A DNA stretch of 45,685 bases from Clostridia bacterium (GTDB lineage Bacteria; Bacillota; Clostridia; Christensenellales; CAG-1252): the NCBI GenBank assembly GCA_017455605.1, contig JAFSZO010000096.1:1-45685 (forward strand), written 5' to 3'. The notes under the pieces were generated by a model. It searched no databases. It worked only from the letters and a program-made list of their open reading frames with translations, and was not told where the DNA came from. Both the position numbers and the translations under genes were made by a program. Below are positions 8,225-38,917 of the stretch, one piece after another. Position 1 is the first letter of the stretch. Each line of letters starts with the position of its first letter.

Positions 8225-9385
8225 TCAATAGGCGGCGTTCAGCAAGGCAAGGAAATCGTCCTTTGTGATGGGGGCAAAGGCGGCGATTGCGGCGCGGGTG
8301 TTGGAGGCTGCCTCGGCGATTTTCCCGAAGTCTTCTCTGTTGATCTTTGTTTGGCTGATCTTGGTCGGTATGTTGCTGATCTCTCTTAGTTTTTCGAGTA
8401 GCGTTGCGATCTCTTTGATCGTTCTTTGCGTCCTTTCTGCGTTGGGCGTGTCTGCGTATTCGTCTGCGCCGACGATGGCGAGCAGCATATTTTTCACACG
8501 TTTTTGCGCGTATTTGAGCGCGGATTCGAGGGAGGGGACAAGCGTCAGGGCGTACATTTCCTCGAGGGGTTCTCCCGTCACGTCCGCCATTCCTTTGGCG
8601 AGGGCGTGGGCGGCTCCGTAGGGTGCTTCCGCGTAGGCGATGCCCGCCAGCGTGCCGGCGAGGACCGTCGCGCGGCAAGAGTCTTCGTCCTCTCCGTTTT
8701 CTACGGCTTTCAGTAGATGTTTTGACAGGAGTCTGATCGCTTTTTCCGCGTAGATCTCGATGGGGCTCTCTTCTTCCGTGTTTAGGTATGCGTCGATGGC
8801 GTTTGCCAGCGCCGCTACGCCGCATGCTGCAACGGTGCGGGTGGGGGCGGTTAGCGCGACCTCTTCGTCGATGATGACCACGTTGGGCACGAGGGAGCGT
8901 GAGGAAACGTAGGTTTCGTTCGTTTCGAGATATCCGCCCGCCTCTTTTCCCGTTCCGCTTTCCGTGGGGATGACGATCAAGGGGATCTCTTTTGTTTTCG
9001 CGTTTCCGATGCCGACCATCGGGACGAGTTCATCGCAATCTTCCGTTAAAAACAGACGTGCGCATTTCGCCGATTCCAGCACGGGGTCTCCGCCGATCGC
9101 AATGATCGCGTCGCATTTTTTGTCGGTATACACGGCTTTGATCTTTCTCGCTTCCTCCTCTTGAAAGACGGTCTTATCGTATTCGTACGTTCCGCCCTCT
9201 TTGACGGACGCCGTGTTGATCACGTTTTTGACCTTAGCGACCACGCCGAGCTTTTGTGAGGCGGATGATACGAGAAAGAGCGGCTTTTTTGCGCCGTAAT
9301 ACGCCAGTTCCGTCGGAATGGTCGACAGGGCGTTTTCCCCGCAGTTGATCTTTACTCCGTTTTGAAACTCAAAATATTTACGCAT
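8225..9385 (-). CDS. Iron-containing alcohol dehydrogenase family protein, non-canonical (metal-ligand motifs substituted)
   Basis: 386 aa from MRKYFEFQNG. Fe-ADH fold signatures are present (IAIGGDPVLESAK, VIPTESGTGKE). The canonical GGGS and DAxxH motifs read GGDP and AALAN. The long Arg-rich ORF-track extension to 9760 was rejected. Confidence 0.8.
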   Translation of the reverse strand: MRKYFEFQNGVKINCGENALSTIPTELAYYGAKKPLFLVSSASQKLGVVAKVKNVINTASVKEGGTYEYDKTVFQEEEARKIKAVYTDKKCDAIIAIGGDPVLESAKCARLFLTEDCDELVPMVGIGNAKTKEIPLIVIPTESGTGKEAGGYLETNETYVSSRSLVPNVVIIDEEVALTAPTRTVAACGVAALANAIDAYLNTEEESPIEIYAEKAIRLLSKHLLKAVENGEDEDSCRATVLAGTLAGIAYAEAPYGAAHALAKGMADVTGEPLEEMYALTLVPSLESALKYAQKRVKNMLLAIVGADEYADTPNAERTQRTIKEIATLLEKLREISNIPTKISQTKINREDFGKIAEAASNTRAAIAAFAPITKDDFLALLNAAY

Positions 9386-11047: not shown

Positions 11048-11290
11048 TCAATCTATGACCTCGTACATCGCCGTCGCGTCCGCTTTCTTGGTGGTCTCGA
11101 GGAGAGCGGTGACCCGCACCTTGAGGGTGGTGTTGCCGTAGACGATCTCGATGACGTCGCCGACCTTGACCTCTTTCGCGGGTTTCGCTTCCTTGCCGTT
11201 CAAGAGCACGCGCGAAGCGGAACAGGCGTCCGCCGCAACGGTCCTGCGCTTGATGAGTCTGCTGGTCTTTAAGTATTTGTCGAGTCTCAT
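11048..11290 (-). CDS. rqcP: S4-domain RNA-binding protein RqcP/YabO
   Basis: 80 aa. MRLDKYLKTSRLIKRRT... is close to B. subtilis YabO by recall. Confidence 0.8.
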   Translation of the reverse strand: MRLDKYLKTSRLIKRRTVAADACSASRVLLNGKEAKPAKEVKVGDVIEIVYGNTTLKVRVTALLETTKKADATAMYEVID

Positions 11291-11430
11291 AGCGATATAT
11301 TACCACAATCGCGCGATGAACACAAGACGGGGACGCCCATTCGCGCGAGAAAAAGCGGCCGCCCCCCGAAAAATCCTCGTTTTTTGTAAAAAGAGGCAAC
11401 TCTCGGTTCGGTTCGTGCTACAATATCGAT

Positions 11431-12555
11431 ATGGAAAACGTGACCAAAACGCCTATGACCGAAAACGACGCCTATCTGCGCGGCATCCGCGCGGGTGTCT
11501 TCGGACTGGTCTCCAACGCCTTGCTCTTCGCCGCGAAGCTCACGACGGGTCTCTTGATCCACAGCATCGCGGTCGTCGCCGACGCTTTCAACAACCTGTC
11601 CGACGGCGCGAGCGGCGCGGTCACGATCGCGGGATACAAGCTCGCTTCCCGTCCTGCGGATCGCGAACATCCCTTTGGACACGCGCGTTTCGAGTACATC
11701 GCCGCTTTGACCGTCACCATCGTGATGTTTATGATCGGCGCGATCTTTTTGAAGGAGTCGATCGAGGGGATCCTCGCGGGACCTTCCGCGCCCGAGATCG
11801 GCGTCTACGCTTACGTCGTGCTCGGCGTCTCGATCCTCGTCAAGGGCGCGCAGGCGGTCGTCTACGGTCTGTCCTACAAGAGGACGAGATCCCTCCCGAT
11901 GAAGGCGGCGGCGACGGACAGCCTCGGCGATATGATCGTTACGTCGGGCGCGCTCCTGTCCGCCGTGCTTTGGCAGACGACGGGCGTAGACCTCGACGGG
12001 TGGTTCGGCGCGGCGATCTCCCTCTTTATCCTCTTTACGGCGGTGCGGCTGATGAAGGAGGGGGTCTCCCCGCTGCTCGGCGCGGCTCCGTCCGAGGAGC
12101 TTGTCGGCGCGATAAAAGGCAAGGTCGCCTCTTTTAGAGGCGTGCTCGGCGTGCACGACGTCGTGATACACAGTTACGGCGCGGCGCGCGTCTATGCGGT
12201 GATCGACGTCGAGATCGCCGCGGATACCCCGCTCACCGTAGCGCACGCCCTCGCGGACAAGATCGAACGGGAGGTTTCCCGTGACCTCGGCGTCCGCCTC
12301 GTCGTACACGTCGACCCGCGCACGACGGAGAAGGCGGCGTCCGAACGCGCCGCTTGGGTGCGAGCGCGCCTTGCCGAGCGTTTCGAGGGCGTGTCCACCC
12401 ACGACCTCCGCGTAGTGGAGGAGGACGGGCGGGTGCGCGTCTACTTCGACGCGGAGATCCCGTACGAGTCCGATCTGACAGCGGAGGAGATCGTTTCCGC
12501 GCTCACCGCCGCCGATCCGACCTGCGAGTATGTCGTGGGCGTGGATAGGAAATAA
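11431..12555 (+). CDS. Cation diffusion facilitator (CDF) family transporter
   Basis: 374 aa. HSIAVVADAFNNLSD and the FGHARFE motif, six TM segments, C-terminal cytoplasmic domain. Confidence 0.88.
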   Translation: MENVTKTPMTENDAYLRGIRAGVFGLVSNALLFAAKLTTGLLIHSIAVVADAFNNLSDGASGAVTIAGYKLASRPADREHPFGHARFEYIAALTVTIVMFMIGAIFLKESIEGILAGPSAPEIGVYAYVVLGVSILVKGAQAVVYGLSYKRTRSLPMKAAATDSLGDMIVTSGALLSAVLWQTTGVDLDGWFGAAISLFILFTAVRLMKEGVSPLLGAAPSEELVGAIKGKVASFRGVLGVHDVVIHSYGAARVYAVIDVEIAADTPLTVAHALADKIEREVSRDLGVRLVVHVDPRTTEKAASERAAWVRARLAERFEGVSTHDLRVVEEDGRVRVYFDAEIPYESDLTAEEIVSALTAADPTCEYVVGVDRK

Positions 12556-12576
12556 CGCGCGTCGTGTCCGCACGTA

Positions 12577-15354: not shown

Positions 15355-15849
15355 TCACAGATCGTAGGGAAGGGTCTCGTCGATCGTGACGTGCCTTGCG
15401 TTCGTGCTGCTGTGGATGCGCGCCCGCTGACGGGTGACGTATGGTGGGATCTCGGATGGGTTCGACGCGAGGTAGGCGAGCTCCGTGTCCTTGTCGCATT
15501 TCTTTTCGGGGTTCAGGAAGAGGTAGGTGAGATTGGTGCCGAACACGCAGTCGTGCAGTTGCCTGAGCTCGCAGGTGATCTCGTCGTAGACGACCAGCGC
15601 GCGGAAAAAGTCGCAGAATCGATGGGTGACGGCGTCTGTCAGCAGCCCGCCGTCGTCGTAGACTTCGCGTGCGACTTTGAGGTTCGAGCGGATGCGCTCC
15701 GCGTCCTTTTCCACCTCTTGCGCAAAGGCCGCCGGGGCGTAGGTCGCGGCGTCCGTCTGCTTCAGTTTGTCGAACTTTCCCTTGATATGCTCCAGTTGTT
15801 TGATGCGTTTATCCGCTTCTTTCGTCAAGATTTCGTAATTCGCGCTCAT
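15355..15849 (-). CDS. Hypothetical protein
   Basis: 164-aa ORF with host-like codon usage and normal amino-acid composition. No recognisable family. Confidence 0.55.
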   Translation of the reverse strand: MSANYEILTKEADKRIKQLEHIKGKFDKLKQTDAATYAPAAFAQEVEKDAERIRSNLKVAREVYDDGGLLTDAVTHRFCDFFRALVVYDEITCELRQLHDCVFGTNLTYLFLNPEKKCDKDTELAYLASNPSEIPPYVTRQRARIHSSTNARHVTIDETLPYDL

Positions 15850-16652: not shown

Positions 16653-16821
16653 GAGTCCGTGTTCCCGGGAGCCCGGGGCGCAGCTTTGCCGAAAATGGCA
16701 AAAAACGCGGCGTTCTCTGCCGTTTTTTCTCTCTTTTTACAACGAATGTCGAAAAATGGTAAAACTTGTTGAAAAGTCGTAAAGAATACGAGACTCGGGT
16801 ATGGGCAAACCGTTCTCCGGA

Positions 16822-16830
16822 TGGTACAAT
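16822..16830 (+). promoter_or_regulatory. Possible extended -10 promoter element (TGgTACAAT) for the vWA cassette
   Basis: TGGTACAAT about 215 nt upstream of the ATG at 17044. No convincing -35 element. Confidence 0.3.
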
Positions 16831-17043: not shown

Positions 17044-17712
17044 ATGAGTATGATTCGTAAAAAAACCGTTTATTTCTTGATCGACTGCTCCGGGTCCATG
17101 TACGGCAGCCGTGCGGACGCGGTGAACAACGCGATGGCACAGGTCGTGGATGAGGTCGTTCCGCAGGTTCGGGCAAACAAAATAGAGGATATGGAGCTCA
17201 GTTTTGTTGTGTTGGGGTTTAGCGACGCACGCGCGGAGAAGGTGTTCGAGATCGTTCCCAAAACCGCATTGGAGGACTTTACCACTTGGGATCCCATCGA
17301 CCCCGAAGCCTTTAGCGGCGGCACCCCGACTGGTGCGGCGCTCAAGAAGGTCATGGAAGACCTGTTGGGTGGAAACCGCGGTGAGCCGGATGTGAATGCC
17401 GTGGCGCCCGCAATCATCTTGATCTCGGACGGCAAGCCCACCGGCACGGATCCCACCTATGAGGAGATGCTTGAGTGCGCCGAAAAGGGGAACCCTCACG
17501 AAGTCAAGGCGTTCCGTAAGGCGCTTCGCGTAGCATTGGGCATCAGCGTCGACGACAAAGGCAGGGAGAGCCTCAAGAAGTTTGGGAGGGTCAGCGACCG
17601 GATGGCAAGTATCGGTATTTCCGCTTACTACGACTGTACCGAGGAGTACGCGCAGCAATTTGCGGAGATCCTGAAGTCTGTCACCGTGAATGCGACCATG
17701 TCGGATTCCTAA
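17044..17712 (+). CDS. von Willebrand factor A (vWA) domain protein, TerY-like
   Basis: 222 aa. Complete MIDAS set: DCSGSM, GGTPTGAAL, LISDGKPT. AAGGAGAG RBS. Confidence 0.85.
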   Translation: MSMIRKKTVYFLIDCSGSMYGSRADAVNNAMAQVVDEVVPQVRANKIEDMELSFVVLGFSDARAEKVFEIVPKTALEDFTTWDPIDPEAFSGGTPTGAALKKVMEDLLGGNRGEPDVNAVAPAIILISDGKPTGTDPTYEEMLECAEKGNPHEVKAFRKALRVALGISVDDKGRESLKKFGRVSDRMASIGISAYYDCTEEYAQQFAEILKSVTVNATMSDS

Positions 17713-17725
17713 GGAATAGCATTCC

Positions 17726-17752
17726 GAGGGGGGCTATGCCCCCCCCTCTTTT
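17726..17752 (+). terminator. Intra-operon GC-rich hairpin plus T4 (attenuating terminator candidate)
   Basis: GAGGGGGG (17726-17733) pairs with CCCCCCTC (17741-17748), followed by TTTT. It lies in the 55-nt gap between the vWA and PP2C genes. Confidence 0.55.
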
Positions 17753-17767
17753 GCGAAGGAGAAAACG

Positions 17768-19327
17768 ATGAAAGATAAAACAACGACTGTTTTCGGCATG
17801 ACCACACTCCCTCTCGGAGGGAGCGTGACAGGGGGAAATGCGTTGACTGCCATGTCCCTCGACGAGCGGCTGGCTGCGGCGATCGATCTGATGAACTGCC
17901 TGTCCGAATTGCAACGGGAAAACGCCGACCTTCCCACTCGGATCGAGAGCATCCGAGAGGCTTGCCCCTCGCTGTCCGGAGTGGACGTCGGTCGCTATCC
18001 CGAGCTACTTCGGACCATGAAGAGGCAGACGCCCCGCTATAGCAACAACGTGTTTGCCGCCTTTCTCCTGTTCTACGTGCTCTCTTGCGGAGCGTATCCG
18101 CAGGACTGTTGGGCAGGTGCTGCGGCGGAGCAGGGGGCTACCGTGCTCGGGCAGATCTGCGAACAGACGGCTGCCCTTTCCTCTGCGTTGTCGAAGGCGG
18201 GAGCGGACGAGGCGGCAGAGGCGGTGAAAGGCGTGGAGAGAGTGTACCGTCGCGGAGTGGAATGCGCCGATCTCGAAGGACTTACGACCGAAGAGACGCA
18301 CGTCGGGCTCGTGAAGATCTACGAGATGCTTTGGGAGGTTTTCGTGACCAAGTACGAGGGCTACAGCATCCCCGTTTGGTGCAGCGTATTGCTCGAGTAT
18401 CTAGGCAAGGCTTTCGCGATCCGCGAGGGCTGTGAGTATCGCGAGCAGAGGGGCAACGTCGAGATCTACGCCGTTTCTTACGAAGGCAAACTCAGCAAGC
18501 CGATGCATCTCCACTGCGAGGACTGCTGTCTGGTGGAGTTCTTTGACAAGAACACCTGGCTCGCCGTCTCCGCGGACGGGGTCGGCAGCTGTGAGAACTC
18601 TTATTACGGATCGGGATTCGCCGTGAAGGCGCTTAGGGACGTGATCGAGAAATACCTGAAGCGCAATCGGATCATCGGGCGCAGACGCACGCGCGACGAG
18701 CAGGGCAACAAGCAGAGGCTGAGACCGATCCCGGACGACGTTTGGGCGAATTTTATGTACTATCTGCGTTTCGATCTCGCGAAGGCGCTTTATGCCGCTT
18801 GGGCATCGGCGGTTCGCGCTTCCGACACCTTCAAAAGCGATCCGAATGCGACCCTCGAGCAATTCACGACGACCCTTCAGTTCGCGTTCGGATGCAAGGC
18901 GTTCGTCGCCTGTGGGCGCGTGGGAGACGGGCTCTTTTTTGTGAGGAAGAGGGAAAGGCGTGTGCGCAATCGCAACGACGGTTGCCTGTTTCTGAACGAC
19001 GGGATCTCCGGCGTGACGCAGACGGAAGTTAGGAGCGTCGCACATCTGGGGAACGCGCCCTCCGCGCTGCTCGTCGATTTTTATCGTCCCGAGGAAGTGA
19101 CGGATATCGTCATCACGTCGGACGGCGCCGAAGGCGTGGTCGGCGACACGGTGACGGCTGCGAATGCGTTCGCTCGTCGGATGCGGGAGCTTCCCTTTGA
19201 GAAGAGGTGCGAGGTTCTGTCCGCGACGGCGCGCGATTGTTCTGATTGCAACGAAACGAATCATGGCAGCGGCGACGACAGCACGATCGTGCACATCGTG
19301 CTCAAAGAGCACAAAGGAGAGAAGTGA
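17768..19327 (+). CDS. PP2C/PPM-like protein phosphatase with an unassigned ~250-aa N-terminal region
   Basis: 519 aa. C-terminal half carries AVSADGVGS, VITSDGAEGVV and GSGDDSTIVHIVL. AAGGAGA RBS. Confidence 0.75.
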   Translation: MKDKTTTVFGMTTLPLGGSVTGGNALTAMSLDERLAAAIDLMNCLSELQRENADLPTRIESIREACPSLSGVDVGRYPELLRTMKRQTPRYSNNVFAAFLLFYVLSCGAYPQDCWAGAAAEQGATVLGQICEQTAALSSALSKAGADEAAEAVKGVERVYRRGVECADLEGLTTEETHVGLVKIYEMLWEVFVTKYEGYSIPVWCSVLLEYLGKAFAIREGCEYREQRGNVEIYAVSYEGKLSKPMHLHCEDCCLVEFFDKNTWLAVSADGVGSCENSYYGSGFAVKALRDVIEKYLKRNRIIGRRRTRDEQGNKQRLRPIPDDVWANFMYYLRFDLAKALYAAWASAVRASDTFKSDPNATLEQFTTTLQFAFGCKAFVACGRVGDGLFFVRKRERRVRNRNDGCLFLNDGISGVTQTEVRSVAHLGNAPSALLVDFYRPEEVTDIVITSDGAEGVVGDTVTAANAFARRMRELPFEKRCEVLSATARDCSDCNETNHGSGDDSTIVHIVLKEHKGEK

Positions 19328-20826
19328 TGAATGTCAACGATACGGTCAAAATAGGCGGCAAGTCTTACTCGGTGCTTGCCAAGCTCGGCGAGGGCGGACA
19401 AGGGTCCGTATGGCGCGCCAAACGCTTGGAGGACGGGTGGGCTTGCGCGATCAAGATCTTGGATGAGAAAAATGCCAATCGCCGCATTGCCAAGATCGCA
19501 AATATCAAAAGGTTGATCGCCCAAAAAGCAGACCAACAGATGGCAGAGGTCGTTAAAAGCGGGCCGGAACAGGGGATCAATCACGTCTGTGCCCTCGGTT
19601 GTTTTACCGATCCCGTCACGAAAGACGTGGGGTACTTGATGGAGCTTGCTCCCGGCAAGTCGGTGGGTAAGATGTTGTCGGACGGCACCCTTCGGAATAT
19701 GAGCTTGGAGCGGAAGCTCCGTATGCTGAAAAAGGTGGCCGCTTCGATCGAAAGATTCCATGTCGTAGGGTATTGCTATACCGACATCAACTGGGGCAAC
19801 TTTATATGGGATGAGGCGACGGACACCCTGTACGTGATCGACTGCGAGAACATCGCCTGCTCCGCCGATATTCGGAGTGGGCGGTGCAACTTCCTGATCG
19901 GGACGGGGTTCTTTATCGCGCCGGAGGTGGCGTTTCGTCAGGCTACGGTCGGGTATGAGACCGATCGTTACGCGCTGGCGACCCTGATCTTCCGCGTGCT
20001 CACCGACAACGTCCTGCAATCGGCGTATCACGGCGTCGCGATGTATACCGCGACACCGATGTGTCAGGACATGACGGAGGTCGCCGAATACGAGGAGGAG
20101 GGTGATATCGACAAGAACTGGCGCAAGTTCGTTTTTGACCCGACGGATCGCTCCAACGGGTTGGACAACCTGTGCCGCAACTGCAAGAACCCTCAAAATG
20201 TCGCCTTTCGCAAGGAGGTCGAGCGAGTCATCGCGATCTGGAACGGATTGGATCCTCGGCTGAAGGACGCCTTTTATCGGACCTTCCGCGATCCATTCGC
20301 GGTGAAGGATCGTTTGAGCGCCTCGGCGTGGTTGCGCTTGATCGACGAGGTCCTCAGCGGCAAACAGGCGAAGGATACCACCTCGACGGTGGGGAAGAAG
20401 GTCCGGCTGACGAACGAGCCCTCTCTGCCGCAGAAGAAGGTCAAGCCCGTTTCGACGAATCCGCTCGACAAGTACCCTTCCTTCGTTCCCCAAGGTGCGG
20501 GGCGGGGGCGCCCCGTACAGGTCAGCGCGAGCGCTCTGCCCGCGAAACCCTATCTGATCGGCACGACGGGGGAGACCCTCGCAATCACGGCGGATGAGAC
20601 CGTCGTCGAAGGCAAGGATCTCGGGCTCAAACAGGGGGTTCTCGGGAGGCTTAGGCGGATCGACACCCACTACGCATTCACCTCCCATTTGCTCTCGCTC
20701 GTCGAGATCTTGGACTCGGCGGGGAAGGTGCGGTGCAAGATCGCGAAGGGAGAGTCCGTCATGCTCGCCAATGGGGAGAGCATCAAACCGGTGGTCAGCA
20801 CTGTCGCGATCAAATTGGTTTGCTGA
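19327..20826 (+). CDS. Hanks-type Ser/Thr protein kinase with an unassigned ~200-aa C-terminal region
   Basis: 499 aa from MNVNDTVKIGG. GEGGQGSVW, CAIKIL, YTDINWGNF, IDCEN, FIAPEV. The ATG overlaps the PP2C TGA (TGATG at 19325-19329). The ORF-track start at 19246 was rejected. Confidence 0.85.
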   Translation: MNVNDTVKIGGKSYSVLAKLGEGGQGSVWRAKRLEDGWACAIKILDEKNANRRIAKIANIKRLIAQKADQQMAEVVKSGPEQGINHVCALGCFTDPVTKDVGYLMELAPGKSVGKMLSDGTLRNMSLERKLRMLKKVAASIERFHVVGYCYTDINWGNFIWDEATDTLYVIDCENIACSADIRSGRCNFLIGTGFFIAPEVAFRQATVGYETDRYALATLIFRVLTDNVLQSAYHGVAMYTATPMCQDMTEVAEYEEEGDIDKNWRKFVFDPTDRSNGLDNLCRNCKNPQNVAFRKEVERVIAIWNGLDPRLKDAFYRTFRDPFAVKDRLSASAWLRLIDEVLSGKQAKDTTSTVGKKVRLTNEPSLPQKKVKPVSTNPLDKYPSFVPQGAGRGRPVQVSASALPAKPYLIGTTGETLAITADETVVEGKDLGLKQGVLGRLRRIDTHYAFTSHLLSLVEILDSAGKVRCKIAKGESVMLANGESIKPVVSTVAIKLVC

Positions 20827-20847
20827 GCAAGAAAACGGAAGGAGACT

Positions 20848-23800
20848 ATGGAAAAGGATACGTTTCTATCTTATTGTGACAGGTTGACCCTAATGGGCAA
20901 AGCTGCTCCGCGTTGGGCAGACATGCCCTCGTCGATCATCGGCGACTATCTGCGGGAGAGCTGTTCGTACGGGTTCGGGCAGGCGCTGGAGCGCCTGCTC
21001 ATTCCCGCTTATCGCATCATAAAGGGGCGGGGCGGCGGCTTCGTCGGCGACGAGAGCGAGCTGTGCGAACTGGCGAGCCTGCTTTCCGCGACGGTCGTGA
21101 CGGACGAATACCGTTTCGACGCCTATTATTTCACGATCTGCGTCGCCGCGGTGAGCTTTTTCGGAGTGTCCGTCGACGCCATCGACTGTGAAGGGTTCGA
21201 CGAGAACGAATTGATGCGGTTCGACTGCTCGGTATCGGTGCAAGACGAGCCCGACCCGCAACGGAAGCGGTTAAAGCGGTTCGGCATCCGCCTCTTGGAC
21301 TATTCCCGCACGAATCAGCTCGTGCATTTTCGGCCGATCAAGAGCGCGACGATGGGGCTGTTTTGCGCCGATCCCCGCGCGACGATCCGCCACCTCTTCA
21401 AGGAGGGGTCCAAGGTCTATCTCGCGAATTGGGGCAAACTGCATCCGAAAATGATCTACAAGTGCAAGCTCTGCGGCAGGACCGAGGTCTTCCCCTACGA
21501 CTCTGCCGCGAAACGGACGCAACCGGCGAGACCGTGCCCCGTCTGCGATGCGGAAAACGTGCATAACCGTAAGAGTTTGATCCCGATCACGGAGAGGCTT
21601 TACCGCTTGCCGCAGGACGGATATCGTTGCCGTTGCGGCAATCGGATCGGGTTTGAGGAGCTGAGCGGCTCCGCGCTCAAGTGCCCGAAGTGCGGCAGCG
21701 CCGTCGCGATAGACACCGCGCCCTTCGTCGCCTACGACGACCTCTCCGCCTACGACGCGAGCGTGATGATCAGCACGAGCAACGGTGCGCTCACGGGCGA
21801 TGTCGCGAAGAAGCTCGCGAACAAAGCCAAGACGATGGACCGCAATTTCGGACTGCACGTCCTGTATCTCGCGTACGGCTTCCTCGAGTGGAAGGACGCC
21901 AACGGCACCGAGTACCATTCGCCCCTTTTGCTGTGCCCGATCAATTTGGGCGTGGACAGGTCGAGGGGGCAGTACTATTTCGAGGTCGACGCTTCGAGCG
22001 GGGGTAAATTCGAACTCAATAAGACCTTGATCCAGATGCTCGCCGCTTATTCGAAGACCTGTTCGATCTCGCTGCCGACCCCGGATCCGGACGACGTGTT
22101 GGGGTATTTTTCGCGCTTGCGTACCCGCTTGAAGGTGGGCGACGACGCCATCACGGCGATCACCAAAGACTGGGAGATCGACGCGGGGTTCGGGATAGGG
22201 CTTTTCCACTATCAAAAGTTGCAGTTGCACGCCGACATCGAGGAGAACGGCGAGAAGTACCTGCAACATCCGATCGTCAGGCGGTTGTGCGGCGATTTGG
22301 CCGCCGCGATCGCTTCGCCCGTTCCCCGCGAGAGGAGCGCCGCGAAGTACGTCACCCTCGACGCCGACTCCTCTCAGGATGCGGTGATCAAAGCCGCGCA
22401 AGAGGGTAGGTCCTTTATCTTGCAGGGCCCACCCGGATCGGGCAAGAGTCAGACCATCACGAACATCATCACCTCTGCACTCGGCGAGGGCAAGAGCGTG
22501 CTGTTCGTGACGGAGAAGGCATCCGCGCGCTCGGTCATCCTCGACAACTTGGCGCAAAGTACCGGGGCGGACAAGTCGCTCACGGACTTCGTACTGGACT
22601 TCGATTCTTTCCGAAAACACGGCGGAGCGGTCAGTCGCGCCGCGTTCGTGGAGGAGCTGAATCGTTGCTTGACGGGGGTCTCTCCCGTCGGCGGGTACGA
22701 CGACAGGCTCCTCTCGGACGAGGCGTTCCGCTACGAACAGATCAAGACCTTTATGAAGCAGATGCGCGGAGAGTACGGCGGACGGAATTATCTCAGACTC
22801 TTGCAGGATATGGCGCAGTATTCTCCCTACGCTCCGCTGAACACGATCTCGCTGATCCCATCGGACAGGGCGGCGTTCATCGCGTTGTGCGATATGATCG
22901 AGAAGGGGTACGAGGCGCTCAAGACCTGCGGCTGTGAGGACCGGTACAAGCATCCACTCTACGGGTGCATCGGCGATCCGACGAACAAGCTCGCGGCAGT
23001 TGCCGAGAGGTATCGGGAGCTGTGTGACGAGGTCGAGGCGCTTCTGGCCGACTTGAGATCTTACGGTTGGAATGCGGACGCCGATCCCGAGTACTTGACC
23101 TTGTGTGCGAAACAGGCGAGGCTTTGGTCCGAGATGCCGAGGCTCTCGTCGGAGATCCTCGACGACCTGAGCGAAAAGAAGGTCGCCTCCTTGCTCGCGC
23201 GGGCGACCGAGCGTTGCGAGACGATCCAAAGGATCGAAGAGGAAGAGAACTCCAAAGAGGTCTCCTCGATCGACAAAAAGAGGTTTGCCGCATTCGACCT
23301 CGGGGAAGCGCAGGCAAAAGCGGAGCACTACCGTCTGTTCCTCAGACGCGTCGGGAGCAAATACGACGCTTGGCTGGACGGGATACTCGGTTGTATCCAA
23401 GGGCGCGGACAGAGGAAGGACTACGCCTCGGCAGTCTCCGCCCTTGACCGGTTACGCCGTTATGCGAGGCTCCTCGAGGCCAAGGAGCGCATTCGGGCGG
23501 CGCGCACCGAAGACGTCGCGCTGTTCGGTTTCGAGCCTGTCGGTCTCGACGAATGGACGGAGCTCAGAGCGGACTTGACCCGACTCCAAAAGATCCTGCG
23601 GGGGCACGATCGGCGTGTCTTCGACCGAAAGAGGGCGGACTGGGTCGATCGGTTCCGTCCCGAGCGGTATTACGAGACGGTGAAGCACCTTCGTGCGCTC
23701 GCCGATCAGCCGAAAGAACTGAAGAGCAAAGAGGCGCTTTTGTCCAAAGAGATGTCCCCGTACATGCGGAAGGCGAGCGCTGATTTCCTCGCGTATGCGG

Positions 23801-25527
23801 AGATCGCGAAGGCGATCACGGAGCATCGCGGCTTGCTCGCCGCTTGGCGCCGCCTGTGCGACGCTCTCACGGCGATAGACGATAAGGGGTTGACTCCCGT
23901 TTGGAGGGAGTTGATCCGCAGCGGGTGCGATCTTGACGTGGCAAAGGCGCGCTTGTTTCGCACCTTTTATCAAAAGACCATCGAGGCATTCGTGGAGCGC
24001 AACGGGCTGACGTACGTTCGAGACTTCGATCGCGCCGAGCACGAGCGGCTGATGCGCAAATACGCCGAAGCGGATATGGGCGTGCTGAGTACGAGCGCCG
24101 CGCGGCTTTGCGAAGCGTTGGACGGCTATCTCAAAGAGGCTGCCGCGAAGCACGGCGGCGGGACTTCGTCGGAATACCCGAAATTCCCCGCCAAGACCGA
24201 CCGCTCGATCAAGCAGTTCATTTCGGAAAACTACGACTATATCCGGCGCATCAAGCCTTGCTTTATGATGTCGCCGTTGAACGTCAGCCAATACGTCGAC
24301 GTCGGGATCACTTTTGACCTCGTGATCTTTGACGAGGCGTCGCAGATCTTCACGGAGGACGCGCTCGCCGCGATCGTGCGGGGACGGCAGGTCATCATCG
24401 CGGGAGACAGCAAGCAGCTTCCCCCGTGCGACTTCTTCCGCGCCGGCGAGAGTATGCAGGACGACGAGGAGCAGTATTACGAGGAAGAGGCAAACGTCGA
24501 GAACTCGTTGCTGAACGCGGCGGATGAGGCGCTCAGCGACGCTTCTGCCGCGCTCGCCTGGCACTACAGGAGCTGCGATGAGGCACTTATCGATTTCTCC
24601 AATCGGGAGATGGAGTACAACCTGATCTCCTTCCCCTCCGCGAAGAAAAACGCGAACGACGGGATCTGCTTTGTGTCCGTCCCCTACGACCCGAACGCCT
24701 GCTATGACGCGGGTAAGGGCGGCACCCACGTCAACCCGGGAGAGGCGGACGAGATCGTGCGGCTGATCTATGACGAAATGACCCATCCCGAACGGCGCGG
24801 ATTCTCGATCGGGGTCGTGGCGTTCAGCAACGCGCAGGCGTTTGAGATCGAGACTCGCTGGGAAGAATTCAAGCAACTGCCCGACAAAAAGGACGCGATC
24901 GAGGCGTGGGAGAGGGCGCACGAGAAAGAGCCTTTGATCTTCTGCAACCTCGACACCGTGCAGGGGGACGAGCGCGATACGACCATCATCAGCGTTTGTT
25001 ACAGCGCCGATCGCAACGGTCGCTTCTCCCTCCCTTACCTCGGGCGGATCCGACTCGCCTCCGGCCGCAAGAGGATCAACGTCGCCGTCACCCGCGCGCG
25101 CCATCGGATGGTCGTGGTCTCCACCTTGAAGAGCGAGGAACTGAGGGCGGCGATCCGCGCAAGTTCCGCCCCGGAAGAGAACAAGTCCGGAGCGCAGATG
25201 CTCTGCGACTTTCTCGAATACGCACGGTCCTTTTCAGGCGGTCCCGAGGGGCGGAATCGCCACAGCACCGATCCCTTCGTTGCTTCGGTGTGCAAGGTGC
25301 TCGATGAGGCGAATCTGGAGTACGATACCGAGATCGGACGGTCGGAATGCAAGGTCAGCATCGGCGTGCGGCGGGCGAACGAGAGGAACAACTACATCTT
25401 GGGCATCATCATCGACGATCCCGGCAGGGCGGACTTCGACAGCGTTCGCGAATACACGAGACTGACCGAGCAGGTTCTCTCGGGGAAATACGGCTGGAAG
25501 GTCTACCGCATCTATCCGACGGCGTAG
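20848..25527 (+). CDS. Upf1-like SF1 helicase: DUF4011-like N-terminus with Zn-ribbon inserts, AAA_11/AAA_12-type core, restriction-endonuclease-like C-terminus
   Basis: 1559 aa. LLDYSRTNQLVHFRP and LHVLYLAYGFLEW...PLLLCPINL (DUF4011-like). GPPGSGKSQT. VIFDEASQI. IIAGDSKQLPP. WHYRS. TVQGDERD. INVAVTRARHRM. C-terminal EIGRSECKVSIGV...GIIIDD...GWKVYRIY. GGAAGGAGA RBS. Confidence 0.9.
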   Translation: MEKDTFLSYCDRLTLMGKAAPRWADMPSSIIGDYLRESCSYGFGQALERLLIPAYRIIKGRGGGFVGDESELCELASLLSATVVTDEYRFDAYYFTICVAAVSFFGVSVDAIDCEGFDENELMRFDCSVSVQDEPDPQRKRLKRFGIRLLDYSRTNQLVHFRPIKSATMGLFCADPRATIRHLFKEGSKVYLANWGKLHPKMIYKCKLCGRTEVFPYDSAAKRTQPARPCPVCDAENVHNRKSLIPITERLYRLPQDGYRCRCGNRIGFEELSGSALKCPKCGSAVAIDTAPFVAYDDLSAYDASVMISTSNGALTGDVAKKLANKAKTMDRNFGLHVLYLAYGFLEWKDANGTEYHSPLLLCPINLGVDRSRGQYYFEVDASSGGKFELNKTLIQMLAAYSKTCSISLPTPDPDDVLGYFSRLRTRLKVGDDAITAITKDWEIDAGFGIGLFHYQKLQLHADIEENGEKYLQHPIVRRLCGDLAAAIASPVPRERSAAKYVTLDADSSQDAVIKAAQEGRSFILQGPPGSGKSQTITNIITSALGEGKSVLFVTEKASARSVILDNLAQSTGADKSLTDFVLDFDSFRKHGGAVSRAAFVEELNRCLTGVSPVGGYDDRLLSDEAFRYEQIKTFMKQMRGEYGGRNYLRLLQDMAQYSPYAPLNTISLIPSDRAAFIALCDMIEKGYEALKTCGCEDRYKHPLYGCIGDPTNKLAAVAERYRELCDEVEALLADLRSYGWNADADPEYLTLCAKQARLWSEMPRLSSEILDDLSEKKVASLLARATERCETIQRIEEEENSKEVSSIDKKRFAAFDLGEAQAKAEHYRLFLRRVGSKYDAWLDGILGCIQGRGQRKDYASAVSALDRLRRYARLLEAKERIRAARTEDVALFGFEPVGLDEWTELRADLTRLQKILRGHDRRVFDRKRADWVDRFRPERYYETVKHLRALADQPKELKSKEALLSKEMSPYMRKASADFLAYAEIAKAITEHRGLLAAWRRLCDALTAIDDKGLTPVWRELIRSGCDLDVAKARLFRTFYQKTIEAFVERNGLTYVRDFDRAEHERLMRKYAEADMGVLSTSAARLCEALDGYLKEAAAKHGGGTSSEYPKFPAKTDRSIKQFISENYDYIRRIKPCFMMSPLNVSQYVDVGITFDLVIFDEASQIFTEDALAAIVRGRQVIIAGDSKQLPPCDFFRAGESMQDDEEQYYEEEANVENSLLNAADEALSDASAALAWHYRSCDEALIDFSNREMEYNLISFPSAKKNANDGICFVSVPYDPNACYDAGKGGTHVNPGEADEIVRLIYDEMTHPERRGFSIGVVAFSNAQAFEIETRWEEFKQLPDKKDAIEAWERAHEKEPLIFCNLDTVQGDERDTTIISVCYSADRNGRFSLPYLGRIRLASGRKRINVAVTRARHRMVVVSTLKSEELRAAIRASSAPEENKSGAQMLCDFLEYARSFSGGPEGRNRHSTDPFVASVCKVLDEANLEYDTEIGRSECKVSIGVRRANERNNYILGIIIDDPGRADFDSVREYTRLTEQVLSGKYGWKVYRIYPTA

Positions 25528-25629
25528 ATCGCGAACTACGAACGGGAAAAGCAGGATCTGATGGCGGCGATCATGTCGGCGTATCAGGCGAGCTGATCCC
25601 TCGTTGCGGCGAATGTCCGTTCTCGGTTG

Positions 25630-25656
25630 AAAAAGTCCGCGACGCGGACTTTTTCT
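25630..25656 (+). terminator. Intrinsic terminator downstream of the helicase gene
   Basis: AAAAAGTCCGCG-A-CGCGGACTTTTT perfect hairpin with a T-run. Confidence 0.75.
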
Positions 25657-25678
25657 TTGCGTGGGGAGGAAAGGGGGC

Positions 25679-25707
25679 TTGTCATAAAGCAGTGGGCGTG
25701 CTATACT
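25679..25707 (+). promoter_or_regulatory. Sigma-A promoter of the HTH gene
   Basis: TTGTCA (25679-25684), 17 nt spacer, TATACT (25702-25707). Confidence 0.55.
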
Positions 25708-25791
25708 ATTTACGTTGTGTCCGAGCGGAGTTTGACGAGTCGACGCAAGAAAACGAGAGACAAAGCGATATGGTTTGTCGAGGAGAAAGCA

Positions 25792-26118
25792 ATGCCAACG
25801 TTCAAGAGGAAAATCATCGACTGGGACAAAACGGGATACAATCTGGAGCAGCTGCGCATCACCAATCCGGCATTGAGGAAGAAGTCCTGTCGCAGCAGGA
25901 CCTTTGAGGCGGGTGAATGCGAAGGGGACTGTGATCGGTGCCGTTACGAGATGGATAACAGCATCAGCAGGGCGGAATTGGCGCAGATCTTCGGCGTTTC
26001 GGAGCACGTGATCTACAGCTGGGAGCGCGGCCGCACTCCCGTCGGGGTGGAGGACCTTCTGCTCTATTGCGACGTCGCGGAGGTGGCGTTGTCCGATATC
26101 CTCGTATTTTTGCCGTAA
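25792..26118 (+). CDS. XRE-family helix-turn-helix protein with an N-terminal Cys-rich segment
   Basis: 108 aa from MPTFKRK (AGGAGA RBS 5 nt upstream). HTH ISRAELAQIFGVSEHVIYSWERGRTPV. Preceded by CRSRTFEAGECEGDCDRC. Confidence 0.65.
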   Translation: MPTFKRKIIDWDKTGYNLEQLRITNPALRKKSCRSRTFEAGECEGDCDRCRYEMDNSISRAELAQIFGVSEHVIYSWERGRTPVGVEDLLLYCDVAEVALSDILVFLP

Positions 26119-26163: not shown

Positions 26164-26345
26164 TGGTGGATAGTAAGGGGTTCTCCTCTTGCTTCTCGTA
26201 AGGCAAATCGTTTTGTTGGAGTGTTGCCTTCTTCGGAGTTTCGGTCAGCCGCTAAAACCGCACAGGGACTTTTTTCTTAATGCTCTCGGTTCTCGTTCCA
26301 TTCTTGGGCGCAGAAAACAAAAAGTGTCGAACTTTTGGGTTAGTT
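26164..26345 (-). repeat. tRNA-3'-end-like core plus ~160-nt conserved arm (distal copy)
   Basis: tggtggatagtaaggggttc (26164-26183) resembles the 3' end of tRNA-Val (17/20). The adjacent tctcctcttgc ... gctaaaaccgcaca ... tttcttaatgctctcggttctcgttcc blocks align with 38654-38800. Confidence 0.6.
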
Positions 26346-38530: not shown

Positions 38531-38633
38531 TTTTTAGTGAAAGAAATCAGCGTTTGATTACAACGGCGAGATAGTCCCATAAAATGAATAATACGAACCC
38601 TTTCTTTCCAAAAGAGTTCGTATTATTCACCTG

Positions 38634-38800
38634 TGGTGGACAGTAAGGGACTCTCCTCTTGCGGTGCTCGGAGCAATGCGTTTTTGTCCTGTTTCTGCTC
38701 CTCGCACCGCGGCGGTCATCGCTAAAATCGACAGAAGTCAACTGTCGATTTCTTAACGCTCTCGGTTCTCGTCCCGTGTTAAGGGCAGTGCGCGAAAAAA
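38634..38800 (-). repeat. Exact 20-nt copy of the tRNA-Val(GAC) 3' end plus ~150-nt conserved arm (proximal copy)
   Basis: 38634-38653 is identical to 38842-38861. The arm aligns with 26184-26345. Confidence 0.7.
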
Positions 38801-38836
38801 ACGAACCCCGAATTGCTTTCGGAGTTCGTTTTATTT
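38794..38836 (-). terminator. Bidirectional terminator immediately 3' of tRNA-Val(GAC)
   Basis: AACGAACCCCGAA ... TTCGGAGTTCGTT flanked by an A-run and a T-run. Homologous to the terminator after tRNA-Val(CAC). Confidence 0.7.
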
Positions 38837-38841
38837 CGTTA

Positions 38842-38917
38842 TGGTGGACAGTAAGGGACTCGAACCCCTGACCCTCTCCACGTCAAGAAGACGCTCTACC
38901 AACTGAGCTAACTGTCC
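38842..38917 (-). tRNA. tRNA-Val (anticodon GAC), CCA encoded
   Basis: 76-nt cloverleaf folded by hand. Acceptor GGACAGT/ACTGTCC, D stem GCTC/GAGC, anticodon loop TTGACGT, T arm AGGGG-TTCGAGT-CCCTT. Confidence 0.9.

What the first reader, a model, noticed from the sequence alone, without database searches (positions are those of the whole stretch)
17044..26118. vWA (TerY-like) + PP2C + Hanks kinase triad fused in an operon to a giant Zn-ribbon/DUF4011 SF1 helicase with an REase-like tail: candidate phospho-switched DNA-targeting (defence?) system
Seen in the sequence:
- Four co-directional genes run from 17044 to 25527. The junctions are 55 nt, -1 nt (TGATG at 19325-19329) and 21 nt. Each gene has a strong GGAG-type RBS.
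- Gene 1 (222 aa) has a complete MIDAS set (DCSGSM / GGTPTG / SDGKPT).
- Gene 2 (519 aa) has PPM-type motifs (ADGVGS, SDGAEG, GDDST). They sit behind about 250 aa that I cannot assign.
- Gene 3 (499 aa) is an apparently active Hanks kinase (GxGxxGxV, AIK, DxxxxN, APE). It has about 200 unassigned C-terminal residues.
- Gene 4 (1559 aa) is an Upf1-like SF1 helicase.
- An XRE-type HTH gene with its own promoter follows.
- The cassette abuts the att-like repeat of a genomic island at 26164.

Established knowledge:
- vWA + PP2C + STK is the TerY-P triad, defined computationally by Anantharaman, Iyer and Aravind (2012) as a predicted phosphorylation switch.
- COG1112/Upf1-like helicases are motors in Mokosh-type anti-phage systems.
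- A kinase-based anti-phage system (Stk2) is known.

Inference: the triad is a sensor/switch module gating a helicase-nuclease-like effector. I do not recall this exact four-gene unit in defence-system catalogues, but I could not check.
Basis: partly seen in the sequence, partly recalled or inferred. Interest (0 to 1): 0.9.

Follow-up and report, generated by a model that had tools for sequence, protein, structure and literature searches.

The report
Kinase-phosphatase switch joined to helicase
Four genes in a gut or rumen Clostridia bacterium travel together as a rare, conserved cassette in which a kinase/phosphatase/adaptor trio probably switches a large helicase related to known anti-phage proteins on and off; it is a new variant of a known design, not a new kind of system.

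Summary
There are four co-directional, tightly spaced genes: vWA, PP2C phosphatase, Ser/Thr kinase and a DUF4011/Upf1-like SF1 helicase. All domain calls were confirmed by HMMs, and the catalytic residues are invariant across homologues.

The adjacency is not accidental. Ten lineages were seen directly (33-100% helicase identity, unrelated flanking genes), and eight of them are complete loci with the same four genes in the same order. About twelve more are inferred from shared contigs. The PP2C, kinase and helicase diverge in step (r about 0.9).

The link is facultative. Four lineages of the same helicase subfamily stand alone. A sister helicase clade carries a different triad in a different gene order.

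New details:
- The kinase ends in an FHA-like fold.
- The PP2C has an all-alpha N-domain with no PDB match, found in only 31 clusters of 1.84 billion proteins.
- Some relatives fuse the vWA to the PP2C.
- The helicase's restriction-endonuclease-like tail has lost its canonical acidic residues and DUF3320, so it is probably not a nuclease.
- In this window a TAG replaces a conserved Trp codon and removes the last 23 residues.

The parts resemble TerY-P, Hhe, PDC-S37 and ProA, but the curated thresholds are not met.

Verdict: a phospho-switched helicase conflict system, a new variant of a known kind. Function is untested.

The parts
16802..16830 (+). Promoter-like site (TGGGCA-17-TACAAT, with TG) about 214 nt upstream of the vWA start. 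It lies after a terminator-like hairpin (16707-16723) that closes the upstream OmdA-family gene.
   Evidence: This is a consensus match only, and the number of sites found is no higher than in shuffled sequence.
17044..17712 (+). Gene 1: stand-alone vWA protein (222 aa) with a complete MIDAS (D14-C-S16-G-S18, GGTPTG, SD129G).
   Evidence: Pfam VWA 1.4e-8. Weak, partial PADLOC TerY hit, 3.4e-4. MIDAS conserved in the primary copies of 8 loci.
17728..17744 (+). G7/C7 hairpin followed by CCTCTTTTG, between the vWA and PP2C genes. Candidate partial terminator or RNA-stability element.
   Evidence: A strong GC hairpin sits at the same position in L002, L003, L081, L085 and L088 but not L082. The position is conserved; the sequence is not.
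17768..19327 (+). Gene 2: PP2C phosphatase (519 aa). It has an all-alpha N-terminal domain (aa 26-246, nt 17843-18505) followed by the PP2C catalytic domain (aa about 248-519).
   Evidence: PP2C_2 1.3e-16. Invariant CED250-252, DGVGS270-274, GDG386-388, SDG451-453 and GSGDD500-504 (S501 in at least 90%). N-domain: AlphaFold2 pLDDT 87, with no PDB fold match. Only 31 clusters in 1.84 billion proteins carry this domain.
19327..20826 (+). Gene 3: Ser/Thr kinase (499 aa). It has a kinase domain (aa 1 to about 270), a conserved extension (about 270-345), a variable linker carrying a Y-x-x-F-V-P-x-G motif, and a C-terminal FHA-like beta domain (aa 398-499, nt 20518-20823).
   Evidence: Pkinase 6.3e-14. 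PD-T4-6 3.1e-21, mad6 and MkoA hits. Catalytic K43, D153, N158 and D172 invariant. C-terminal domain: pLDDT 93, and 49 of the top 50 Foldseek PDB hits are FHA domains or entries containing one (APLF, TM 0.73).
20848..25527 (+). Gene 4: DUF4011 / Upf1-like SF1B helicase (1559 aa as encoded here).
- N-terminal region, aa 1-140, unassigned.
- DUF4011 with two inserted zinc ribbons (aa 206-282, nt 21463-21693).
- Walker A, aa 527-534 (nt 22426-22449).
- About 600 aa of helical insert.
- DEASQ, aa 1162-1166 (nt 24331-24345).
- AAA_12 domain.
- Degenerate REase-like tail, aa 1477-1559 (nt 25276-25524).
25525..25596 (+). TAG (25525-25527) replacing a conserved Trp codon, followed by the 22 codons and TGA that form the natural C-terminus in relatives (PTAWIANYEREKQDLMAAIMSAYQAS).
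   Evidence: P0001 is 100% identical over 1559 aa and reads W there. All 11 relatives whose C-termini were inspected read W, and the column is at least 90% conserved in the 23-sequence alignment.
25629..25655 (+). 12-bp hairpin followed by a U-run: the likely terminator of the unit.
   Evidence: z = -2.3.
25792..26118 (+). XRE-type HTH gene (108 aa) with its own promoter-like site at 25679-25707. It is a neighbour, not a conserved core part.
   Evidence: A similar gene was found only in the closest relative L001. Other loci have unrelated HTH genes, some on the opposite strand, or none.

Best explanation
This is a four-gene conflict (most likely anti-phage or anti-plasmid) cassette. A TerY-P-type phosphorylation switch is coupled to a Hhe/PDC-S37/ProA-related SF1B helicase, and the helicase is the effector.

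Shown here:
- The four genes are inherited and moved as one unit.
- The kinase, the phosphatase and the helicase ATPase keep their catalytic residues.
- The vWA keeps a metal-ion-dependent adhesion site (MIDAS).
- The kinase carries an FHA-like domain.
- In some relatives the vWA and the PP2C are one polypeptide.
- The helicase also exists alone.

Inferred:
- In the resting cell the PP2C keeps the system dephosphorylated.
- A trigger, bound through the vWA MIDAS or the PP2C N-domain, lets the kinase autophosphorylate.
- The FHA-like domain then binds phospho-threonine to assemble or hold a kinase-helicase complex, and/or the kinase phosphorylates the helicase.
- This releases ATP-driven 5'-3' translocation on invader or host nucleic acid.
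- Because the REase-like tail has lost its canonical acidic residues, the output is probably remodelling or unwinding (or toxicity through it), not cleavage by that domain.
- The hairpin after the vWA gene would set a higher vWA-to-enzyme ratio.

In this particular genome the helicase lacks its last 23 residues, so this copy may be impaired.
For: Synteny and co-inheritance:
- vWA-PP2C-STK-helicase occur in the same order with tight junctions in L002 (54% helicase identity), L003 (38%, a Bacilli MAG), L081, L082-84, L085-87, L088 and L192 (42%). The kinase lies directly upstream in L194 and a kinase tail in L193.
- Flanking genes differ from locus to locus.
- Twelve further helicase clusters share a contig length with PP2C or kinase hits.
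- All 3 PP2C homologues looked up (of 44 found) lie in the unit.
- Pairwise identities of PP2C, STK and helicase correlate at r = 0.88-0.91.

Independent couplings:
- A second triad type (STK with a weak zinc-ribbon signal, vWA, PP2C) sits beside a sister DUF4011 helicase clade, at variable positions, in L060, L117 and L153.
- vWA-PP2C fusions exist.
- The PADLOC MkoA model PDLC03920 is matched by both the kinase and the helicase. This suggests a kinase-like region and an Upf1-like helicase in one Mokosh protein; no MkoA protein was inspected.

Active sites and folds:
- Catalytic residues are conserved.
- The kinase C-terminus has an FHA-like fold.

Kinship with defence proteins:
- PDC-S37 1.6e-190, Hhe 3e-80, PD-T4-6 3e-21.
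- NCBIfam antiphage_ProA 8.4e-189 and Hhe_antiphage 1.6e-117.

Literature: TerY-P defends on its own and accompanies Upf1-like CnuH helicases (PMC11090510). TerY-P has been linked to helicases and endonucleases as predicted restriction or suicide modules (PMC4978471, citing Anantharaman 2012).
Against: - There is no experimental data.
- The genes around the cassette in the window are housekeeping or sugar-utilisation genes, not a defence island. Only two of the roughly ten related contexts show obvious defence neighbours (TIR in L081 and L089).
- The helicase subfamily stands alone in four lineages, so it does not need the triad.
- The NCBIfam ProA and Hhe scores are far below their curated cut-offs. 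PADLOC has no hit for the PP2C and only a weak TerY hit.
- The nuclease motifs are degenerate, so the killing or blocking activity is unclear.
- The canonical FHA phosphate-binding Arg, His and Asn are not conserved; only a Gly and a Ser are.
- The window copy carries a premature stop.
- The sample is small (about 25 lineages), and the homologue searches were word-filtered, so claims of exclusivity are limited.
Confidence: 0.55

Rival explanations
1. Two independent defence systems, a TerY-P-like triad and a Hhe-like single-gene helicase, simply sit next to each other and are co-transferred. Neither controls the other.
For: - The helicase subfamily occurs alone in four lineages.
- According to PMC11090510, TerY-P-like triads defend on their own (Gao 2020).
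- Hhe is annotated as a single gene (PMC11232893).
- The CoCoNuT authors themselves treat TerY-P as a possibly stand-alone add-on (PMC11090510).
Against: - Junctions of -8 to 30 nt (PP2C to kinase) and 9 to 21 nt (kinase to helicase) indicate one transcript and translational coupling.
- Order and orientation are fixed across 38-100% identity, with changing flanks.
- No member of this PP2C or kinase family was seen without the helicase.
- The proteins diverge in step.
- A second, differently ordered triad is attached to the sister helicase clade.
Confidence: 0.17
2. A phosphorylation-regulated DNA or RNA maintenance helicase (repair, replication restart or RNA surveillance) for the cell's own housekeeping, not a defence against invaders.
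For: - The nuclease residues are lost.
- One triad-less relative lies directly after recA-recX.
- Several loci sit among housekeeping genes.
- The nearest solved helicases (IGHMBP2, Sen1, Upf1) are RNA or R-loop surveillance enzymes.
Against: - The distribution is very rare and patchy: about 45 helicase clusters and 31 PP2C clusters among billions of proteins.
- The cassette is inserted between unrelated genes in each genome.
- One relative lies in an ICE-like region with TIR and HEPN/MNT genes.
- All named relatives are anti-phage families.
Confidence: 0.12
3. In this genome the cassette is a decaying remnant. The premature stop in the helicase marks loss of function, so nothing works here whatever the family does elsewhere.
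For: - TAG replaces a Trp codon that all 11 inspected relatives keep and that is at least 90% conserved, including in a 100%-identical sequence from another assembly.
- The missing 23 residues are conserved and include a W that distant DUF4011 helicases also keep.
Against: - All other ORFs and motifs are intact, with no frameshifts.
- Only the last helix of an already degenerate domain is lost.
- A single G-to-A difference could be an assembly or sequencing error.
Confidence: 0.15

Closest known systems
TerY-P triad (Anantharaman, Iyer & Aravind 2012; shown to be anti-phage by Gao et al. 2020, as cited in PMC11090510)
   Same: Three adjacent co-directional genes: a stand-alone vWA with a MIDAS, a PP2C phosphatase and a Hanks-type kinase. 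They are predicted to form a phospho-switch attached to DNA- or RNA-processing effectors.
   Different: - The kinase ends in an FHA-like domain, not the OB-fold (Gao type) or zinc ribbon (CoCoNuT type).
- The PP2C has an extra 220-aa all-alpha domain with no PDB match.
- The PADLOC TerY model is hit only weakly, and no PADLOC model matches the PP2C.
- The gene order here is vWA-PP2C-STK.
Hhe (Gao 2020), PADLOC candidate PDC-S37 and NCBIfam 'anti-phage protein ProA': single-gene DUF4011 helicase-nucleases
   Same: DUF4011 N-region, an Upf1-like SF1B core split by a long insert, and a C-terminal Vsr/MTES_1575-type fold. HMM E-values are 1e-80 to 1e-190.
   Different: - No DUF3320.
- The canonical nuclease D and E are replaced.
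- There are about 320 extra or divergent N-terminal residues with two zinc ribbons.
- Scores are far below the NCBIfam cut-offs (630 against 1500; 394 against 2000).
- It is usually preceded by a triad, not alone.
- I could not find the publication behind 'ProA'.
CoCoNuT type II / III-A systems (PMC11090510)
   Same: A TerY-P triad sits in one operon with an Upf1-like SF1 helicase (CnuH). The triad is frequent but dispensable, as it is here.
   Different: There is no McrBC-like GTPase pair, no coiled-coil nuclease and no HEPN partner. The helicase is of the DUF4011 type, not CnuH.
Type VI secretion threonine-phosphorylation pathway (PpkA kinase with a vWA domain, PppA PP2C, Fha1); recalled from my own knowledge
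   Same: The same four module types (kinase, PP2C, vWA, FHA) form a reversible switch that licenses an ATP-driven machine.
   Different: This is an analogy only. The domain arrangement differs (here the FHA is on the kinase and the vWA is separate), the output is a helicase, and no homology beyond the domain families has been shown.
Mokosh (MkoA) and kinase-based defences (PD-T4-6, Stk2, MADS Mad6)
   Same: The kinase hits the PD-T4-6, mad6 and MkoA models. One MkoA model is hit by both the kinase and the helicase, which suggests a kinase-like region and an Upf1-like helicase in one protein.
   Different: The matches are partial (1e-6 to 1e-27). There is no PLD nuclease partner (MkoB), no methylation genes, and the helicase family is different.

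Membership tests
TerY-P triad | Stand-alone TerY-like vWA protein with an intact MIDAS | tested here: inconclusive
   Pfam VWA 1.4e-8 and a complete, conserved MIDAS. The PADLOC TerY model gives only E = 3.4e-4 over 50 residues.
TerY-P triad | Adjacent, active PP2C phosphatase | tested here: met
   PP2C_2 1.3e-16, with all metal-binding motifs invariant. No PADLOC model matches it.
TerY-P triad | Adjacent, active Hanks-type Ser/Thr kinase | tested here: met
   Pkinase 6.3e-14. K43, D153, N158 and D172 are invariant; the APE motif is conserved (P199 invariant, A198 and E200 in at least 90%).
TerY-P triad | Kinase C-terminal OB-fold (Gao type) or zinc ribbon (CoCoNuT type), as described in PMC11090510 | tested here: not met
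   The C-terminal domain models as an FHA-like beta sandwich (pLDDT 93). 49 of the top 50 PDB hits are FHA domains or entries containing one.
TerY-P triad | Protection against phage | not testable with these tools
   Needs cloning and phage challenge.
Hhe (NCBIfam NF042953; PADLOC Hhe) | Score at or above the curated family cut-off | tested here: not met
   393.8 bits against a cut-off of 2000. The match covers only aa 969-1558.
Hhe / DUF4011 helicase-nucleases | DUF4011 plus an AAA_11/AAA_12 SF1 helicase core | tested here: met
   Walker A and DEASQ are invariant.
Hhe / DUF4011 helicase-nucleases | Catalytically competent Vsr/MTES_1575-type endonuclease domain | tested here: not met
   The canonical motifs (K/R)(I/L)D(I/L) and IECDG..YH are replaced by CKV(S/N)IG and LGIIIDDP throughout the subfamily. 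The Pfam score is below the gathering threshold.
Hhe / DUF4011 helicase-nucleases | C-terminal DUF3320 | tested here: not met
   There is no PF11784 hit in the window protein or in any of the roughly 45 subfamily members.
ProA (NCBIfam NF058533) | Score at or above the curated family cut-off | tested here: not met
   630.2 bits against a cut-off of 1500. The match covers query aa 321-1558 only.
PDC-S37 (PADLOC candidate, single gene) | Full-length match to the model | tested here: inconclusive
   E = 1.6e-190, but only model positions 8-1320 of 1550 are covered. The sister-clade helicase in L060 matches at 1198 bits with its best stretch reaching the model's C-terminal end (positions 745-1542 of 1550). 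No curated cut-off is available.
CoCoNuT type II/III-A | McrB/McrC-like CnuB/CnuC plus a CnuH helicase and a HEPN CnuE | tested here: not met
   The neighbours in the window are housekeeping or sugar-utilisation genes. No such genes appear in the related loci.
Mokosh | MkoA helicase together with a PLD-nuclease MkoB (type I), or a fused equivalent (type II) | tested here: not met
   There are only partial MkoA and MkoC hits (1e-27 and 1e-15) to the helicase core. No PLD gene is nearby.

The most novel reading that the evidence does not exclude
A nuclease-independent immune helicase licensed by phospho-threonine recognition. The kinase's FHA-like domain reads a phosphorylation mark (on the kinase, the vWA or the helicase). 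That recruits or unlocks a DUF4011 SF1B motor whose endonuclease fold has been retired. Protection would then come from ATP-driven stripping or unwinding of invader replication or transcription complexes. The PP2C's previously unseen alpha-domain, sometimes fused to the vWA, would act as the trigger sensor. This would make the unit a compact bacterial counterpart of kinase-FHA checkpoint signalling, and a handle on how TerY-P triads work in general.
Probability: 0.25. Interest if true: 0.75.

Novelty: new variant of a known kind. Interest (0 to 1): 0.55.

Why it matters
TerY-P triads are widespread add-ons to prokaryotic conflict systems, yet the papers I could read give no trigger, substrate or logic for them. 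This cassette is a minimal case: one triad and one effector protein in a single operon. Natural controls already exist, namely the same helicase without the triad, vWA-PP2C fusions, and a sister clade with a different triad. That makes the question 'what does the triad do to its effector?' directly testable. It also shows a Hhe-type helicase that has given up its nuclease residues, which raises the question of whether the motor alone can be the effector.

Tried and rejected
1. I guessed from the motif NNxFAAxxLFYVxxxGxYPQ that the PP2C N-domain was a degenerate kinase C-lobe. Foldseek gave no support (best E = 2, TM 0.2; BRAF at rank 50), so I rejected the idea.
2. The metagenome-contig scan with the helicase alignment returned only distant DUF4011 helicases and no subfamily members, so it added only negative controls.
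3. The viral-contig scan gave 17 distant helicases, none with a triad. There is no evidence that the unit is phage-borne.
4. Anantharaman et al. 2012 (PMC4104200 / PMID 23044854) is not held. I therefore cannot say whether they already drew this exact helicase context. I relied on how PMC4978471 and PMC11090510 cite it.
5. Literature searches for 'ProA', 'PDC-S37' or any paper joining TerY-P with DUF4011 found nothing relevant.
6. I searched for helicase columns specific to triad-linked lineages. This gave a few candidates (for example R1400 and S1405 in an RIRLxS context near motif VI). One triad-less lineage keeps them and the contrast is confounded by phylogeny, so this is a lead only.
7. 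Pfam at E <= 1 found nothing in the kinase C-terminus, the PP2C N-terminus or helicase aa 1-151.
8. Rfam found no RNA family in the cassette.
9. The HTH gene was considered as a fifth component and rejected because it is not conserved.

Full report
**1. What is in the sequence**

Four + strand ORFs occupy 17044-25527: 222, 519, 499 and 1559 aa.
- Their junctions are 55 nt, a one-base overlap (TGATG) and 21 nt. Each start is preceded by AGGAG at 5-9 nt.
- The kinase start at 19327, not the upstream TTG of the mechanical ORF list, is supported by the RBS and by every homologue's N-terminus.
- A promoter-like site lies at 16802-16830, after a terminator-like hairpin that ends the upstream gene.
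- A 12-bp hairpin with a U-run at 25629-25655 closes the unit.
- Rfam finds only three tRNAs in the window, none in the cassette.

**2. Domain assignments**

Pfam confirms VWA, PP2C_2 (aa 248-470), Pkinase (aa 14-265), DUF4011, AAA_11 and AAA_12. MTES_1575 is sub-threshold, and there is no DUF3320. The helicase core is Upf1-like SF1B: IGHMBP2, Sen1 and Upf1 are the only solved relatives.

Across homologues the following are conserved:
- the MIDAS residues of the vWA;
- the PP2C metal-binding motifs: CED, DGVGS, GDG, SDG, GSGDD;
- the kinase residues K43, D153, N158 and D172, which are invariant, and the conserved APE motif;
- the helicase Walker A, DEASQ and eight zinc-ribbon cysteines, which are invariant.

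**3. Is the adjacency meaningful?**

I searched one genome per species (GTDB) with a helicase alignment and scanned all returned loci with the window's proteins.
- Only three loci belong to the ~1590-aa subfamily. The two with upstream sequence (L002, 54% identity; L003, 38%, a Bacilli MAG) have vWA-PP2C-STK-helicase in the same order.
- Look-ups of helicase and PP2C homologues gave the same four-gene block in L081, L082-84, L085-87, L088 and L192. They also gave a kinase directly upstream in L194 and a kinase tail in L193.
- Twelve more helicase clusters share a contig length with PP2C or kinase hits.
- The flanking genes differ in every lineage. In the window they are IspDF, Fe-ADH, Macro and OmdA. 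Elsewhere they are a metallophosphatase and flavin reductase, AAA+/YbjN genes, or ThiF and MatE. The block therefore moves as a unit.
- PP2C-to-STK and STK-to-helicase junctions are tight everywhere (-8 to 30 nt and 9 to 21 nt). The exception is L081, where the called helicase start is probably too far downstream.
- Pairwise identities of PP2C, STK and helicase across eight loci correlate at r = 0.88-0.91.

**4. The linkage is not obligatory**

Full-length members of the same helicase subfamily stand alone in four lineages:
- P0044/P0047, in an ICE-like region next to TIR-LRR and HepT/MNT genes;
- P0042, after recA-recX;
- P0028, beside an arginine operon;
- P0045, after a GlpQ-like gene.

On a neighbour-joining tree these lineages are interspersed with triad-linked ones, and deep branches (L003, P0046) are triad-linked. 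This implies repeated loss or gain.

Among 67 informative loci of more distant DUF4011 helicases, only one carries a triad (L153). Two less complete loci (L060, L117) also do.
- These three share a different triad: gene order STK-vWA-PP2C, a short PP2C, and a weak zinc-ribbon signal after the kinase domain.
- The triad lies upstream or downstream of a DUF3320-bearing helicase.
- That helicase is the sister of our subfamily and a full PDC-S37 match.

Two triad types attached to related helicases argue for a functional partnership. They also argue that the helicase is the autonomous effector and the triad an accessory controller.

**5. New anatomy**

(a) Kinase C-terminus. The last 102 residues model with pLDDT 93 as a ten-strand beta sandwich. 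49 of the 50 best PDB matches are FHA domains or entries containing one (APLF TM 0.73; DgcB, Rv0020c, PNKP). The E-values are modest (about 1e-3). Of the canonical phosphate-binding residues, only a Gly and a Ser (S453) are conserved. It is FHA-like in fold, and pThr binding is unproven.

(b) PP2C N-terminal domain. Residues 26-246 model as ten helices (pLDDT 87) with no PDB match. A profile of this domain finds only 31 clusters among 1.84 billion representatives. All are 460-890-aa proteins, and every one inspected carries a PP2C domain.

(c) vWA-PP2C fusions. At least six relatives carry a vWA domain fused to the N-terminus of this PP2C.

(d) Hairpin after the vWA gene. A strong GC hairpin follows the vWA stop codon in six of seven distinct loci, with no sequence conservation. 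This suggests uneven expression of the vWA against the enzymes.

(e) REase-like tail.
- Canonical DUF4011 helicases show ...(K/R)(I/L)D(I/L)..., ...IECDG..YH... and ARDRDRLR.
- The whole ~1590-aa subfamily instead has CKV(S/N)IG, LGIIIDDP and VREYTRL.
- Two canonical acidic residues are gone, so the domain is most likely not a nuclease.

(f) Premature stop. In this window a TAG replaces the conserved Trp of PTAW, removing 23 conserved residues. A 100%-identical protein from another assembly reads through.

**6. Relationship to known systems**

- PADLOC: helicase to PDC-S37 (1.6e-190, model positions 8-1320 of 1550) and Hhe (3e-80). Kinase to PD-T4-6, mad6 and MkoA. vWA weakly to TerY. PP2C to nothing.
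- NCBIfam: antiphage_ProA (630 bits, cut-off 1500) and Hhe_antiphage (394 bits, cut-off 2000), both well below cut-off. Nothing for the vWA or the PP2C.
- Literature held here:
  - TerY-P consists of a vWA, a PP2C and a kinase; triads with an OB-fold kinase defend on their own (Gao 2020); TerY-P triads accompany the Upf1-like helicase CnuH in most type II/III-A CoCoNuTs but are dispensable (PMC11090510).
  - TerY-P with helicases and endonucleases was proposed in 2012 as a restriction or suicide module (PMC4978471, citing Anantharaman 2012).
  - The same trio also accompanies GTPase-centred conflict systems (PMC7159879).
  - Hhe is annotated as a single DUF4011 gene (PMC11232893).
  - No held paper mentions TerY-P together with DUF4011.
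  - I could not read the 2012 paper.

The design principle is therefore known. This particular combination is not captured by the catalogues I could test. It combines an FHA-like kinase, a PP2C with an orphan domain, and a nuclease-degenerate, DUF3320-less helicase with zinc ribbons.

**7. Mechanism**

Shown: the genes are co-inherited, the catalytic sites are intact, the kinase has an FHA-like fold, vWA-PP2C fusions exist, and the helicase can stand alone.

Inferred, by analogy with TerY-P proposals and, from my own knowledge, with the PpkA/PppA/Fha1 switch of type VI secretion and with the Stk2 and PD-T4-6 kinases:
- The PP2C holds the system off.
- A trigger engages the vWA MIDAS or the PP2C N-domain.
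- The kinase autophosphorylates, and its FHA-like domain stabilises a phospho-dependent complex.
- The helicase is phosphorylated or recruited and translocates on nucleic acid.
- With the nuclease residues gone, the effect would be remodelling or unwinding, not cutting.

I give this integrated reading 0.55. The rivals are independent neighbours (0.17), a housekeeping helicase (0.12), and, as a partly overlapping caveat, an inactivated copy in this genome (0.15).

**8. Context in the window**

The cassette has the same GC content (about 0.58-0.60) as the sequence upstream. Directly downstream, after the HTH gene, lies a low-GC (0.45-0.53) block at 26.2-38.8 kb.
- It encodes an AraC-GH39 fusion protein. 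By my own reading of the translation, not confirmed by an HMM search, it also encodes a sugar ABC transporter.
- It is bounded by repeats related to the 3' end of the tRNA-Val gene at 38842-38917.

The window holds no other recognisable defence or mobility genes near the cassette.

**9. Verdict**

This is a real, conserved, rare four-gene unit. It is a new variant of the known pattern 'TerY-P switch plus NTPase effector', built on a Hhe/PDC-S37-type helicase that has probably lost its nuclease. It is worth an experiment because it is a minimal, naturally controlled case for learning what TerY-P triads do. It is not categorically new, and its function is untested. Interest: 0.55.

Noticed in passing
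window 25525-25596: TAG replaces a conserved Trp codon of the helicase. Relatives, including a 100%-identical protein from another assembly, read on to a C-terminus about 20 or more residues longer (22 in that protein, to the TGA at 25594-25596). This could be a real nonsense mutation or a sequencing error.
   Followed up: partly
window 17728-17744; L002 ~6420-6450; L003 ~6648-6672; L081 ~6720-6747; L085 ~8864-8894; L088 ~5398-5450: A strong GC-rich hairpin follows directly after the vWA stop codon in six of seven distinct loci. The position is conserved and the sequence is not. Possibly a partial terminator that sets vWA stoichiometry.
   Followed up: partly
window 26164-26300 and 38614-38917: A low-GC block (26.2-38.8 kb) encodes an AraC-GH39 fusion protein and what looks, by eye, like a sugar ABC transporter. 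It is bounded by repeats derived from the 3' end of a tRNA-Val gene, so it is probably an integrated island. The cassette lies just outside it.
   Followed up: partly
L085-L088 (e.g. L085 5025-8000 and 17442-18092); L081 2620-5817: Some relatives elaborate the unit.
- L085-L088 have a 660-aa AAA+ ATPase and two YbjN-like genes directly upstream, and an extra vWA paralogue directly downstream of the helicase.
- L081 has three tandem vWA genes, two with a degraded MIDAS, plus an extra kinase-like ORF.
This recalls the vWA-flanked ATPase insertions described for CoCoNuT III-A.
   Followed up: no
window ~20450-20480 (kinase aa ~376-384, KYPSFVPQG); L193 2-163; P0104 linker: A short Y-(K/R)-x-F-(V/K)-P-x-G motif sits in the otherwise variable kinase linker just before the FHA-like domain.
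- It is tripled in the kinase tail upstream of helicase P0037, which lacks the FHA-like domain.
- It recurs (EYRAFRPGE) in the linker of a vWA-PP2C fusion protein.
It is a candidate docking motif.
   Followed up: no
L060 6707-15109; L117 137-6851; L153 7677-17295: A second architecture: a different triad (STK with a weak zinc-ribbon signal, vWA, short PP2C) lies upstream or downstream of a DUF3320-bearing, nuclease-intact DUF4011 helicase. That helicase is a full PDC-S37 match and the sister clade of the window's helicase.
   Followed up: partly
L089 7118-18041 (triad-less relative P0044): A triad-less member of the helicase subfamily sits in an ICE-like region (TraG/VirD4 coupling protein, Clp protease genes). 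It lies next to a Sel1-repeat gene, a TIR_2-LRR protein, a HepT/MNT pair and a PDDEXK_4 protein, which looks like a defence cluster.
   Followed up: no
window 20848-25527 (NCBIfam hit): NCBIfam release 20 names a DUF4011 helicase family 'anti-phage protein ProA' (NF058533). I could not find its source publication in the held library.
   Followed up: partly
window 15355-15849 (- strand) and 11287-12573 (- strand): Two upstream ORFs (164 and 428 aa) have no Pfam match. The 164-aa one lies between the Macro-domain gene and the OmdA-family gene, just before the cassette.
   Followed up: no
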